NCBI GenBank assembly: GCA_965223735.1
Contig: OZ245010.1
Coordinates: forward strand, 1,712,397-1,776,396
DNA: 64,000 nucleotides
DNA from: Candidatus Oxydemutatoraceae bacterium
GTDB lineage: Bacteria; Pseudomonadota; Gammaproteobacteria; Poriferisulfidales; Oxydemutatoraceae
Direction: 5' to 3'
Shown: one piece after another, positions 16,448 through 21,527 of the stretch
Position numbering within the stretch: the first letter of the stretch is position 1
Layout of the letters: the number at the start of each line of letters is the position of its first letter
The notes under the pieces: model-generated
The model's database searches: none
Told to the model about the DNA's origin: nothing
The model's input: only the letters and a program-made list of their open reading frames with translations
Program-made: the position numbers and the translations under genes

Positions 16448-17010
16448 GTTGTGAATTGCGGATAGGCCTTGGTCAGTTATACTTTTTATGCGCCGTGTCA
16501 TAATAGAGCTCCTGTTGTGAATTGCGGATAGGCCTTGGTCAGTTATACTCCCGCGCTCCAGGAACGTCCATCATCTCCAGTTGTGAATTGCGGATAGGCC
16601 TTGGTCAGTTATACTGCTGATCATATTCTACCGGTGGATGGAGGCGTTGTGAATTGCGGATAGGCCTTGGTCAGTTATACTATTCAGTTCCTCAATTAAA
16701 ACACCTTTAGCGTTGTGAATTGCGGATAGGCCTTGGTCAGTTATACTGCAACACATCGTGCTGTCGTGTTGGGGCATGTTGTGAATTGCGGATAGGCCTT
16801 GGTCAGTTATACTAAGCTGCTTATCGACAACCTTCTGTGTCAGTTGTGAATTGCGGATAGGCCTTGGTCAGTTATACTTACCGCACGTTCCCTGTCTTTA
16901 CCAGTCAAGTTGTGAATTGCGGATAGGCCTTGGTCAGTTATACTTGAACTGATTGCGCCTCTACCCCCTGATTAGTTGTGAATTGCGGATAGGCCTTGGT
17001 CAGTTATACT
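16448..17010. CRISPR. CRISPR array: 9 direct repeats of 36 bp with 8 spacers of 29-30 bp
   Basis: Perfect repeat GTTGTGAATTGCGGATAGGCCTTGGTCAGTTATACT at 16448, 16514, 16580, 16646, 16712, 16778, 16843, 16909 and 16975. Spacers are unique and of mixed GC. A 48-bp AT-rich leader-like segment separates the array from the cas2 stop. Confidence 0.95.
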
Positions 17011-17058
17011 CGCCACAATGCAACAGGCTGATTTTTATAAAATTTCCAAGTATTGGAA

Positions 17059-17391
17059 TTACAGAAATTCCAGTTGTGTGGGTGGTTGTTCAATTGGTTT
17101 GGTCTTTTTTCCGTAGAAAACTTGTATTTTCCCAAATTGTTTATCGGTAATTTTTAGGATTCTTATTTCTCCATCGGGTGGCAGACAGCTTTTAACGCGT
17201 GCCACATGAACTTGTGCATTTTCTTCACTCGCACAGTGTCGCATATAAACAGAATACTGCATCATACCAAAGCCATCTACTAATAGGTTCTTCCGGAATT
17301 TGGAGTATTGTTTTCTTGCTGACTTAGTATCTGTCGGGAGATCAAACAATACAATAACCCACATAGTATGCGTTCCTCCAAAGCTAATCAT
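17059..17391 (-). CDS. cas2: CRISPR-associated endoribonuclease Cas2
   Basis: About 100 aa, MWVIVLFDLP..YSVYMRHC, typical of Cas2. 4-nt overlap with cas1. Alternative start at 17364. Confidence 0.85.
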   Translation of the reverse strand: MISFGGTHTMWVIVLFDLPTDTKSARKQYSKFRKNLLVDGFGMMQYSVYMRHCASEENAQVHVARVKSCLPPDGEIRILKITDKQFGKIQVFYGKKTKPIEQPPTQLEFL

Positions 17392-18287
17392 TGATCTTCC
17401 TTAATTCTCGTTGGAATATTCAGAGCTTTGGTTGCGCCAAACATCACGGATTTTAGATTAGCCATAAGATGGTGAGAGGCAACCATTAGGGGCAAGGGTT
17501 GGTCTTTCCAAATTACAGCGTTGCTAAGTAATTCTAGTAAATATCGTTTGTTATTTTTACAAATTTTTGGTTCGGAATCTTGCCTTGCAATTTTCCAAAC
17601 TACTAAATCAACCCAAGGACGGAAAGGTTCCATTAAATCGTCTGCTAGACAAAGTCCGTTGTACTGATTGTGGTGGTGTAATCCTAATGCCGGATGAAGC
17701 CCGCTACCCACTAATGATCGAGCCACCATTGCCCGGATGATGGCGTAACCATAGTTAAGTAAGGCGTTGATGCCACTTTGGTTACGGTCTCGACGAAAGT
17801 TTTGTCCCATTAACAAGCGCCAGTACAGTTGTGCTGCTTGAGCTTCATGATTTTCTTTATCGCTGGATTTTACCTTTATAGCTATACGTTTTAGTGTTGC
17901 TGAACTGACATTTAGGCGGTCTAAAGTATCTACTTGCTGTATGATTTTGTGGCGAACAATCTGCTGCCATAGACGATTTTTAGTTGATTTAGAAACTGAT
18001 ATTTGTTGCTGCAGAACCTTTGTATGCAGACTGTGTCCTTCACTAATCGGCAAAATAACGGAGTAAGGGATGTATTGCTCGTCACAGAAAACAACAACCG
18101 TATTGTTTTTTTGGCATACGATTAGTGTTTTTTGAGTAATAACAATTGCAGGGTGTTGTAGTATGAGAATCCCTATATCTTCAACTGGAATAACAGCCGC
18201 TAATTCCCCTGATTTTTCTATTAAGAGTTGATTGTTTTGGGTGCGAATATATGCCCGTTCACTGATATCAACCGTCCGCTTAATCAT
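17388..18287 (-). CDS. cas1: CRISPR-associated endonuclease Cas1 (type II)
   Basis: 299 aa. N-terminal YIRTQNNQLLIEKSGE and Cas1 fold, located between cas9 and cas2. Confidence 0.9.
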   Translation of the reverse strand: MIKRTVDISERAYIRTQNNQLLIEKSGELAAVIPVEDIGILILQHPAIVITQKTLIVCQKNNTVVVFCDEQYIPYSVILPISEGHSLHTKVLQQQISVSKSTKNRLWQQIVRHKIIQQVDTLDRLNVSSATLKRIAIKVKSSDKENHEAQAAQLYWRLLMGQNFRRDRNQSGINALLNYGYAIIRAMVARSLVGSGLHPALGLHHHNQYNGLCLADDLMEPFRPWVDLVVWKIARQDSEPKICKNNKRYLLELLSNAVIWKDQPLPLMVASHHLMANLKSVMFGATKALNIPTRIKEDQ

Positions 18288-21200: not shown

Positions 21201-21388
21201 CTTCGTGCCAAGCGGCACTTTCGCCGATGGATATTCTTCGGGGTAGGGTTTTTATCCTCCACCGCACGTTGAAAAATTCGGCATCCCAAGTCAATTAGGC
21301 CGGTTGGTTTGTCATGCTTATCCGCCTCAAGCAATGCCCATCCTATGGAATTGCTGCCGAGATCAAGCCCTAACACCTTCTTGCTCAT
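18280..21388 (-). CDS. cas9: Cas9 (type II-C), with the reading frame interrupted near 18566-18572
   Basis: RuvC-I MSKKVLGLDLGSNSIGWAL at the N-terminus, HNH motif NTEIDHILPLSRSLDDSYMNKV and RuvC-III HRHHAIDAVV. The 942-aa frame stops at 18563. The last ~100 aa (GKDYEFVMALHINDLVSI..., alignable to the NmeCas9 PAM-interacting domain) continue in another frame as the 18280..18675 ORF. No csn2 or cas4, hence II-C. Confidence 0.85.
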
Positions 21389-21416
21389 AGATGCATTCTC
21401 GTATATACTGGCCAGT

Positions 21417-21527
21417 AGTATAACTGACCAAGGCCTATCGATTAGCTTTTCATACCAATGAAATATCTTTTTCGTAGGCAACGCTTTTAAGCGACCAAGA
21501 GCCCTCCCAGCGGGGGCTCTTTTAATA
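21417..21527 (+). ncRNA. Candidate tracrRNA: a 23-nt anti-repeat plus downstream hairpins and terminator. Strand assignment is uncertain.
   Basis: 21417-21439 (AGTATAACTGACCAAGGCCTATC) is the exact reverse complement of repeat positions 14-36. It lies 28 nt upstream of the cas9 ATG. On the plus strand it is followed by hairpins (TTTCAT-ACCA-ATGAAA, CGCTT-TT-AAGCG) and an intrinsic terminator at 21497-21527. Confidence 0.45.
21497..21527 (+). terminator. Rho-independent terminator (8-bp stem followed by TTTT)
   Basis: aagagccc-tcccagcg-gggctctt followed by tt. Confidence 0.5.

What the first reader, a model, noticed from the sequence alone, without database searches (positions are those of the whole stretch)
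16448..21527. Complete type II-C CRISPR-Cas locus on a low-GC island, with cas9 apparently broken in the PAM-interacting domain
The locus has an array (9 x 36-bp repeats, 8 spacers), cas2, cas1 and cas9 with intact RuvC-I/II/III and HNH motifs. No csn2 or cas4 is present. The cas9 frame terminates at 18563. The remaining ~100 aa, which align to the NmeCas9 PI domain (F.F..HPNDLV..), are only recovered by a 1-nt frame change around 18566-18572 (caa tgg | agc taa). That site is not a long homopolymer. Either cas9 is a recent pseudogene, truncated before the PAM-interacting domain, or this is a sequencing error. The locus GC of about 40% against about 65% for the backbone indicates horizontal acquisition.
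Basis: partly seen in the sequence, partly recalled or inferred. Interest (0 to 1): 0.6.

Follow-up and report, generated by a model that had tools for sequence, protein, structure and literature searches.

The report
Type II-C CRISPR-Cas9 locus, frameshifted cas9
This is an ordinary, horizontally acquired Neisseria-style (type II-C) CRISPR-Cas9 immune locus, complete with its guide-RNA genes, in which cas9 is split by a small length change in a run of six A's, so it has probably just been inactivated.

Summary
The locus is real. It has 9 identical 36-bp repeats with 8 spacers (16448-17010), cas2, cas1, and a cas9 with all catalytic residues. There is no csn2 or cas4. GC is about 0.38-0.42 against a 0.60-0.68 backbone.

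I add the tracrRNA (+ strand, about 21417-21523), with a conserved promoter, nexus and terminator. It is backed by strong repeat/anti-repeat covariation across 34 related loci.

Alignment with more than 100 intact homologues puts the frame switch in the A6 run at 18635-18640. So the lesion is in a homopolymer. Removing one A gives 1035 aa; adding two A's gives the loop length seen in relatives.

An independent k-mer assembly of run ERR13605531 is 100% identical over 4,728 bp, A6 included. Forty-two other homopolymers of 6 or more bases in the window lie in unbroken ORFs. I therefore favour a real, very recent inactivating mutation (about 0.68) over a consensus error (about 0.22).

Everything else in the locus is intact. 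No protospacers were found.

Verdict: a new member of a known kind, low interest.

The parts
16448..17010 (+). CRISPR array: 9 identical 36-bp repeats and 8 spacers. The crRNA strand is +, so it converges on the cas operon.
   Evidence: Searches give the coordinates. The strand follows from the tracrRNA strand and from the repeat 5' end pairing next to the nexus.
17059..17391 (-). cas2 (110-aa ORF). Its start overlaps the cas1 stop by 4 nt.
   Evidence: TIGR01573, 79.5 bits..
17388..18287 (-). cas1 (299 aa), type II (NMENI) subfamily, full length.
   Evidence: TIGR03639, 285 bits, profile positions 1-277 of 278.
18280..18636 (-). cas9 C-terminal segment in the +1 frame: 118 codons plus the stop. 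It covers most of the PAM-interacting domain. Its stop overlaps the cas1 ATG.
   Evidence: homology resumes at NGSHKGVF.... (maps to Nme1Cas9 993-1066). (AF2 model pLDDT 75.6; the top 13 Foldseek PDB hits are II-C Cas9s, E about 0.01).
18635..18640 (-). A6 run (T6 on the + strand) where the reading frame switches. A5 or A8 would restore one ORF.
18563..21388 (-). cas9 N-terminal ORF (941 aa). It holds RuvC-I/II/III, the bridge helix, REC, HNH and WED. The last 23 residues are out-of-frame junk.
   Evidence: TIGR01865, 566 bits. (the same protein is P0001 in public data). (catalytic residues).
21381..21409 (+). tracrRNA promoter: -35 TTGCTC (21381-21386, the reverse complement of cas9 codons 2-3), a 17-nt spacer, then -10 TATACT (21404-21409).
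   Evidence: the same arrangement is conserved in about 38 related loci. One search gives the coordinates. Promoter function is inferred.
21417..21523 (+). tracrRNA (about 107 nt): anti-repeat 21417-21439, lower-stem segment GCTTTTCATACC 21445-21456, nexus hairpin 21460-21473, middle hairpin 21474-21496, terminator hairpin plus T-run 21498-21523.
   Evidence: a perfect 23-nt inverted copy of the repeat; 0 expected by chance..
21645..21822 (-). Remnant of the C-terminus of an IS256-family transposase (about 50 aa, itself frameshifted). It marks the right edge of the cas module.
   Evidence: tblastn, 67% identity to annotated IS256 transposases, E 2e-13. Pfam gave no hit.

Best explanation
This is a canonical, horizontally acquired type II-C CRISPR-Cas9 module with Neisseria-like architecture. 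A divergent tracrRNA lies upstream of cas9, followed by cas9-cas1-cas2 and an array transcribed towards the cas genes.

How it would work when intact: tracrRNA and crRNAs are made from the + strand. Their 36-nt repeat and anti-repeat pair to form a bulged duplex, an AA junction and a nexus. Cas9 binds this dual RNA, recognises a PAM through its C-terminal domain, and cuts DNA with its RuvC and HNH sites.

In this genome, a length change in a coding poly-A tract (now A6 at 18635-18640) shifts the frame. The most likely event is loss of 2 A's from A8. Gain of 1 A from A5 is the alternative. The 941-aa product lacks nearly the whole PAM-interacting domain, so DNA interference is most likely lost, and probably PAM-guided spacer choice as well.

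cas1, cas2, the tracrRNA, all nine repeats and the out-of-frame C-terminal codons are still perfect. The lesion is therefore very recent.

Shown: the anatomy, the frameshift site, the RNA pairing and the foreign composition. Inferred: that the indel is biological, that function is lost, and the promoter activities.
For: Identity and anatomy.

Frameshift site:
- Homologues match frame A to RHKK and frame B from NGSHKGVF.
- 48 of 55 relatives with the motif read straight through this site in one ORF of at least 1030 aa. The other 7 are broken elsewhere. Several carry A7 runs at the same codons (L012, L023, L060).
- Relatives have 8 residues between R and G.F, which favours A8 as the ancestral state.

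That the indel is real:
- Logan contig L001, assembled independently from run ERR13605531, is 100% identical to window 16975-21702, including A6.
- 42 other homopolymers of 6 or more bases lie in unbroken long ORFs in the window. Thirteen of them are in the cas genes.
- About 10-15% of related loci also carry damaged cas9, with deletions, insertions, frameshifts or stops.

tracrRNA:
- An anti-repeat lies about 50 nt upstream of cas9 in about 38 loci.
- 98.2% of cells are paired, against 40-46% in slid controls. 21 pairs show compensatory changes, against 9.0 +/- 1.5 in shuffles.
- The promoter is conserved, and the duplex energy is -47.8 kcal/mol.

Horizontal origin:
- The GC contrast and the IS256 remnant.
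- The flanks share no synteny with any of the 67 related loci.
- The Cas9 clade is scattered over Binatia, Methylococcales, Nitrospiria, Zetaproteobacteria and others.
Against: - No reads were available, so a consensus error in the homopolymer cannot be excluded. The Logan contig may derive from the same reads as the deposited assembly.
- No close relative exists (the next Cas9 is 64% identical). The ancestral tract length is therefore inferred only from loop length.
- The complete absence of secondary decay fits an error as well as it fits a very recent mutation.
- Loss of function of a Cas9 lacking the PI domain rests on established knowledge from other Cas9s. It was not tested here.
Confidence: 0.68

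Rival explanations
1. Sequencing or assembly artefact. The true gene has A5 or A8 and is an intact Cas9 of about 1035 aa, so the locus is fully functional.
For: - The lesion is a length change in a homopolymer, the classic consensus-error class.
- Everything else in the locus is pristine, including 118 open, conserved codons downstream.
- The source is a metagenome-derived 1.85-Mb contig. That related records are long-read MAGs is my inference from their titles.
Against: - An independent k=31 assembly of a public run reproduces A6 within a 4,728-bp stretch of perfect identity. This also implies accurate reads.
- 42 other runs of 6 or more bases, including A7/T7 in cas9 and cas1, show no frame break.
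- If the ancestral tract was A8, the error would have to be a 2-nt undercall.
- No alternative allele was found among 5.8 billion proteins or in JGI metagenome DNA.
Confidence: 0.22
2. The frameshift is tolerated or used. Possible routes are a reversible on/off switch by slippage of the poly-A tract, low-level +1 ribosomal or transcriptional slippage on AAAAAA that restores full-length Cas9, or a separately translated 108-aa C-terminal fragment that complements the 941-aa fragment.
For: - A +1 slip of tRNA-Lys on the first AAA would give exactly the A5-type product (sequence).
- An AAGGGGG Shine-Dalgarno-like motif lies 11 nt upstream of the in-frame ATGATG. A gene caller called that 108-aa ORF.
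- The downstream frame is perfectly preserved.
Against: - A6 is short for phase variation or transcriptional slippage.
- No relative carries a frameshift at this site, and all read through in one frame.
- Stand-alone C-terminal fragments in other assemblies start at various other positions, so this is not a recurrent site.
- No allele of a different tract length was found.
- No stimulatory element is evident.
Confidence: 0.07

Closest known systems
Neisseria meningitidis type II-C CRISPR-Cas9 (Nme1Cas9; PDB 6JDQ, 6KC8)
   Same: - Gene content is the same: cas9-cas1-cas2, with no csn2 or cas4.
- Repeats are 36 nt and start GTTGT; spacers are 30 nt.
- The anti-repeat/tracrRNA lies upstream of cas9, and the array is transcribed opposite to the cas operon (PMC3737331).
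- The tracrRNA is about 107 nt, with an AA junction before the nexus, as is general for II-C (PMC6546382).
- The PI-domain motif ALHINDLV corresponds to SLHPNDLV.
- The repeat's 3' end carries a -10-like box (TATACT here, TACAAT in Nme). The Nme repeat promoters are cited from my own knowledge of Zhang et al. 2013.
   Different: - Similarity is distant (phmmer E 1.6e-64, partial coverage).
- cas9 here is frameshifted.
- The repeat lacks the extended -10 TG, so repeat-embedded promoters are only plausible (TTGCGG-16-TATACT, 8 of 12 matches).
- The PAM is unknown.
ThermoCas9 / GeoCas9 (Geobacillus type II-C; PDB 9AR4, 8UZA)
   Same: These are the best-scoring solved relatives (E 3.2e-72 and 3.7e-69), aligned over residues 172-973. 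9AR4 is ThermoCas9 according to PMC13216068. Size is similar, about 1035-1087 aa.
   Different: They belong to a different clade and different host phyla. They are intact and biochemically characterised, and their guide RNA scaffolds differ.
Uncharacterised II-C Cas9 clade of Methylococcales, Binatia, Nitrospiria and sponge-symbiont MAGs (e.g. Methylomonas montana and Ca. Methylobacter favarea Cas9, P0039 and P0042; Methylovulum miyakonense HT12 locus L014)
   Same: - End-to-end identity is 56-64%.
- Locus layout is identical, and repeats are near-identical (AGTGTAACCGACCAAGGCCTATCCGCAAATCACAAC on the cas strand).
- The tracrRNA position, promoter, GCUUUUCAUACC lower stem, nexus and terminator are the same.
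   Different: - Most members are intact; this one is frameshifted.
- Its nearest relative is only 64% identical.
- Its genomic flanks are unrelated to those of all 67 loci examined.

Membership tests
Type II-C CRISPR-Cas | Cas9 effector with RuvC-like and HNH nuclease domains | tested here: met
   TIGR01865 at 566 bits. D9, E505, H593, N607/N616, H729 and D732 are present and invariant. Pfam HNH_4 and RuvC_III are recorded for the same protein.
Type II-C CRISPR-Cas | cas1 and cas2 adjacent; no csn2 (II-A) and no cas4 (II-B) | tested here: met
   Cas1 TIGR03639 and Cas2 TIGR01573. The cas9, cas1 and cas2 ORFs overlap, and only 48 nt separate cas2 from the array, so there is no room for another gene.
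Type II-C CRISPR-Cas | tracrRNA with an anti-repeat complementary to the CRISPR repeat, plus a nexus and terminator | tested here: met
   A 23/23-nt anti-repeat at 21417-21439. A terminator. Covariation across 34 loci: 98.2% paired, 21 compensatory pairs.
Type II-C CRISPR-Cas | Cas9 groups with II-C orthologues rather than II-A or II-B | tested here: met
   The top 14 distinct PDB sequences are all II-C enzymes. II-A St1Cas9 and SaCas9 score far lower. No formal phylogeny was made.
Type II-C CRISPR-Cas | Uninterrupted effector gene, i.e. a functional system | tested here: not met
   There is a frame switch in the A6 run at 18635-18640, giving a 941-aa product without most of the PI domain.
Neisseria-type II-C expression mode (array transcribed against the cas operon from repeat-embedded promoters, RNase III-independent) | crRNA strand opposite to the cas genes | tested here: met
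   The tracrRNA strand is fixed by its conserved promoter, nexus covariation and terminator. The crRNA must be on the same (+) strand for the repeat's 5' end to pair next to the nexus. This is computational only.
Neisseria-type II-C expression mode (array transcribed against the cas operon from repeat-embedded promoters, RNase III-independent) | A promoter inside every repeat | tested here: inconclusive
   The repeat holds TTGCGG-16 nt-TATACT (8 of 12 matches). This is below the scan threshold and was not listed. The same bases are also constrained by RNA pairing.
Neisseria-type II-C expression mode (array transcribed against the cas operon from repeat-embedded promoters, RNase III-independent) | crRNA 5' ends inside spacers; maturation without RNase III | not testable with these tools
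   This needs small-RNA sequencing or a northern blot.
Programmed frameshift or phase-variable (contingency) gene | The frameshift or tract is conserved in relatives, or alleles of several tract lengths exist | tested here: not met
   None of the 55 relatives with the motif is shifted at this site. No other allele was found. C-terminal fragments elsewhere start at other positions.

The most novel reading that the evidence does not exclude
The coding poly-A tract in cas9 acts as a reversible on/off switch, or is bypassed by +1 slippage or fragment complementation. Under this reading, a genome-reduced, probably host-associated bacterium toggles or throttles Cas9 immunity rather than having lost it.
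Probability: 0.06. Interest if true: 0.55.

Novelty: new member of a known kind. Interest (0 to 1): 0.2.

Why it matters
The broader significance is small. This is a textbook type II-C locus caught just after, or falsely appearing to be just after, inactivation of cas9.

Practical value:
- It corrects where a read-level check must look: the A-run at 18635-18640.
- It defines the tracrRNA, its promoter and the dual-guide scaffold for a large, uncharacterised II-C Cas9 clade. More than 100 members are 56-64% identical. This could be used to reconstitute these enzymes.
- It adds one more case to the roughly 10-15% of loci in this clade with damaged cas9, consistent with frequent loss of acquired defence modules.

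Tried and rejected
- Rfam scan of 16000-22500 at E <= 1: no family, including tracrRNA or CRISPR-DR models.
- Spacer targets: the whole array searched by blastn against 50,697 phage and 72,556 plasmid records gave no match. The 3' 22 nt of each of the 8 spacers searched against IMG/VR gave 0 matches. So no PAM could be derived.
- Self-targeting: no spacer matches the rest of the window with up to 7 substitutions. The remaining 1.8 Mb of the genome could not be checked.
- Alternative alleles: a gapped DNA pattern allowing 4-10 bases in place of the A-run found nothing in JGI metagenomes. A protein search with the repaired C-terminal 188 aa found only the window's own 108-aa fragment above 60% identity.
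- Recurrent frameshift hot spot in this clade: rejected. Stand-alone C-terminal fragments begin at different places, and damaged relatives are broken elsewhere.
- Shared insertion site with relatives: rejected. tblastn of 11 flanking proteins against all 67 loci gave nothing.
- Host identity: exact look-ups either failed or showed singleton clusters without names. The host remains an unnamed lineage with a contig of at least 1.85 Mb and 60-65% GC.
- Pfam on the ORF fragments right of the tracrRNA: no hit even at E <= 10. tblastn then identified an IS256 transposase remnant.
- A -1 slip on the A-run as a rescue: rejected from the sequence, because the -1 frame stops after 10 codons.
- PMC4607530 was checked for cas9 pseudogenes in Campylobacter. 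Its pseudogene mentions concern another gene, so it is not used.
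Full report
**Observation**

The window holds nine identical copies of GTTGTGAATTGCGGATAGGCCTTGGTCAGTTATACT between 16448 and 17010. They are separated by eight unique spacers, seven of 30 nt and one of 29 nt.

Three genes lie on the minus strand next to the array:
- cas2 at 17059-17391 (TIGR01573, 79.5 bits).
- cas1 at 17388-18287 (TIGR03639 cas1_NMENI, 285 bits, full profile).
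- cas9, running from the ATG at 21388 to a stop at 18563 (TIGR01865, 566 bits). It covers only profile positions 2-932 of 1070.

The ORFs overlap one another, and only 48 nt separate cas2 from the array. There is no room for csn2 or cas4.

The catalytic residues D9, E505, H593, N607/N616, H729 and D732 are present. They are invariant in an alignment with 13 homologues.

GC is 0.36-0.42 across the cas genes, against 0.60-0.68 in the backbone. All of this agrees with the finding.

**Where the frame breaks**

The second frame (18280-18675) overlaps the first over 18563-18680, so the change could lie anywhere in those 118 nt.

More than 100 database homologues of 1026-1103 aa align end to end with a repaired protein, at 50-64% identity and 99-100% coverage. 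Their sequences decide the position:
- They follow frame A up to ...WMTYGNIHHVEVIRHKK.
- They follow frame B from NGSHKGVFITMMEAAYRARGING...
- Frame A beyond that point (WQPQGGFYHYDG...) matches nothing, and so does frame B before it (MWKLFVT).

The switch is therefore inside the run cac-AAAAAA-tgg at 18635-18640. A repair there would leave 23 unrelated residues in the protein.

Deleting one A gives a 1035-aa ORF. Relatives, however, almost always have eight residues between R and G.F (for example HKKTGKYE; a few have one more, none fewer). Two extra A's would give HKKNGSHK, also eight residues, whereas A5 gives seven. The most economical history is loss of two A's from an A8 tract, with a one-base gain from A5 as the alternative.

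Intact relatives carry A7 runs at exactly these codons (L012, L023, L060). The site is intrinsically prone to slippage.

**What is lost**

A profile of the C-terminal region maps to Nme1Cas9 residues 876-931 and 993-1066. The second stretch contains FKFSLHPNDLVEV, which corresponds to EFVMALHINDLVSI here. The break lies between the two stretches.

An AlphaFold model of the 118 out-of-frame residues has a mean pLDDT of 75.6. Its 13 best PDB matches are all type II-C Cas9 structures, although the scores are weak (E about 0.01, TM 0.45).

From my memory of the Nme1Cas9 domain map, the PI domain begins near residue 945. On that basis the break falls a few residues into the PI domain, so the 941-aa product lacks nearly all of it.

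It is established knowledge from other Cas9s that removing the PI domain abolishes PAM-dependent DNA binding. This was not tested here.

**Real mutation or consensus error?**

No reads were available, so I used three proxies.

1. The truncated 941-aa protein is on record on a 1,846,438-bp contig (NCBI/ENA). It is also on a 4,728-bp Logan contig, assembled independently by a k-mer method from run ERR13605531 and reported for two samples. That contig is 100% identical to window 16975-21702, including A6. Perfect identity over 4.7 kb also implies accurate reads.
2. Forty-two other homopolymers of 6 or more bases lie in uninterrupted long ORFs in this window. Thirteen are in the cas genes, and some are 7 bases long. 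The assembly is therefore not generally error-prone at such runs.
3. Damaged cas9 is common in this clade. Among 67 related loci I found a deletion (L031), an in-frame stop (L046), insertions of 315 nt and 1.2 kb (L058, L062), single and triple frameshifts (L059, L068), and N-terminal remnants (L057, L065-L067).

Against a real mutation: the lesion belongs to the classic error class, the locus shows no other decay, and the Logan contig may come from the same reads as the deposited assembly.

I put a real, very recent mutation at about 0.68, an artefact at about 0.22, and tolerated or used frameshifting at about 0.07.

**The guide RNAs**

The finding did not mention these.

A perfect 23-nt inverted copy of the repeat's 3' part lies at 21417-21439, ending 28 nt from the cas9 ATG. 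None is expected by chance.

On the + strand it is followed in order by:
- a short variable linker,
- the invariant GCTTTTCATACC,
- an AA(T) junction,
- a small hairpin,
- GTAGGCAACGCTTTTAAGCGACC,
- a GC-rich hairpin with a T-run ending near 21523.

In about 38 of the related loci an anti-repeat sits at the same place, about 50 nt upstream of cas9, and changes in step with that locus's repeat.

I joined repeat and tracrRNA sequences from 34 loci and counted pairs:
- 98.2% of cells form standard pairs, against 40-46% when partners are slid by 1-3 columns.
- 21 pairs show compensatory changes, against 9.0 +/- 1.5 in shuffles. These include 17 of the 23 upper-stem pairs and 2 of the 4 nexus pairs.
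- The repeat's first 12 nt pair with GCUUUUCAUACC across a U-rich internal loop.
- The spacer-proximal base is paired and an AA junction precedes the nexus, as described for II-C dual guides (PMC6546382).

The predicted duplex energy is -47.8 kcal/mol.

A promoter precedes the anti-repeat in nearly all loci. It has -35 TTGCTC, which is the reverse complement of cas9 codons 2-3, then 17 nt, then -10 TATAnT, 7-9 nt before the anti-repeat. In the window these elements lie at 21381-21386 and 21404-21409.

Because the tracrRNA is on the + strand, the crRNAs must be too. The array is therefore transcribed towards cas2, as shown experimentally for N. meningitidis and C. jejuni (PMC3737331).

Each repeat carries TTGCGG-16 nt-TATACT, which resembles the tracrRNA promoter. 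Repeat-embedded promoters of the Neisseria kind are therefore plausible but unproven.

**Origin**

Several observations point to horizontal acquisition:
- The cas block begins 44 nt after a poly-C tract that ends a duplicated thyA-folA unit. It ends at the tracrRNA terminator, next to a roughly 50-aa remnant of an IS256 transposase.
- The flanks share nothing with the 67 related loci.
- The Cas9 clade is spread over Binatia, Methylococcales, Nitrospiria, Zetaproteobacteria, Desulfobacterota and sponge-associated Gammaproteobacteria.
- Four other hosts with 59-66% GC flanks also carry it as a lower-GC block.

The host itself has no close relative in the protein collection.

**Comparison and verdict**

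By gene content, tracrRNA, repeat type and closest solved relatives, this is a type II-C system. Those relatives are ThermoCas9 9AR4 (E 3e-72), GeoCas9-type 8UZA and Nme1Cas9 6JDQ.

The only membership criterion it fails is an uninterrupted effector gene.

- No relative is frameshifted at this site.
- No alternative allele was found.
- No protospacer was found in phage, plasmid or IMG/VR collections.

It is a new member of a known kind: a 64%-identity Cas9 orthologue in an uncharacterised clade, with an ordinary inactivating lesion. Interest is low.

The useful outputs are the corrected frameshift site and the defined guide-RNA scaffold for the clade.

Noticed in passing
window 12908-14303 and 15002-16404: The thyA-folA unit is present twice in tandem, at 95% identity over 1.4 kb with a 2.1-kb period. 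Both copies have open, full-length ORFs. The CRISPR array starts 44 nt after the second copy.
   Followed up: partly
window 14295-14311, 16396-16404, 61569-61586: There are long homopolymers: C17 and C9 exactly at the downstream ends of the two thyA-folA copies, each followed by lower-GC DNA, and G18 at 61569. The duplication and the cas insertion both end in a poly-C tract, which suggests a recombination or insertion hot spot, or an assembly oddity.
   Followed up: no
window 29992-30754 (- strand genes): The 5' end of the rRNA adenine dimethylase gene (rsmA/ksgA; Pfam RrnaAD profile positions 4-51) is repeated three times in tandem, with a 266-nt period and 91-95% identity, upstream of the complete gene at 29354-30229.
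   Followed up: partly
window 8897-9541, 31869-32336, 27377-28132: There are further tandem repeats with periods of 215 nt, 117 nt and about 426 nt, at 87-96% identity. The last lies in the C-terminal helix-turn-helix part of the DprA/SLOG-like ORF.
   Followed up: no
window 24070-24142 and 28298-28370, bracketing 24245-28135: A 73-bp direct repeat (93% identity) flanks a gene pair of intermediate GC (about 0.5). One gene is a RecQ-like DEAD-box helicase with a phosphoribosyltransferase-like tail. The other is a DprA/SLOG-domain protein with several HTH modules. This may be an integrated element or defence cassette with att-like ends.
   Followed up: no
window 21645-21822 (-): A remnant of the C-terminus of an IS256-family transposase, about 50 aa and itself frameshifted, lies directly beyond the tracrRNA terminator. 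It was found by tblastn (67% identity) after Pfam found nothing.
   Followed up: yes
window 22468-23848 (-): An HTH (XRE-type) plus M78/ImmA-like peptidase protein of 375 aa follows a small 86-aa upstream ORF and overlaps it by 8 nt. This arrangement looks like a toxin-antitoxin pair or a phage-repressor pair. A cupin gene lies at 22134-22448.
   Followed up: no
window 21381-21439 and related loci L002-L063 (about 50 nt upstream of cas9): The -35 box of the tracrRNA promoter is encoded by cas9 codons 2-3 (AGC AAG) on the other strand. The anti-repeat DNA also places the repeat's -10-like TATACT box pointing towards cas9, 22 nt before its ATG. The cas9 and tracrRNA control regions therefore overlap in a way that is conserved across the clade. 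Any regulatory meaning is speculation.
   Followed up: partly
loci L031, L046, L057, L058, L059, L062, L065-L068: About a tenth to a sixth of species-representative genomes with this Cas9 clade carry a damaged cas9. Lesions include a deletion, a stop, insertions of 315 nt and 1.2 kb, one to three frameshifts, and N-terminal stubs. Whether these are real or assembly errors was not examined.
   Followed up: partly
locus L014 (Methylovulum miyakonense HT12), upstream of cas9: The tracrRNA region carries an insertion of about 35 nt that duplicates the TTTTCATACCAATG segment, so this locus has a variant or disrupted tracrRNA.
   Followed up: no
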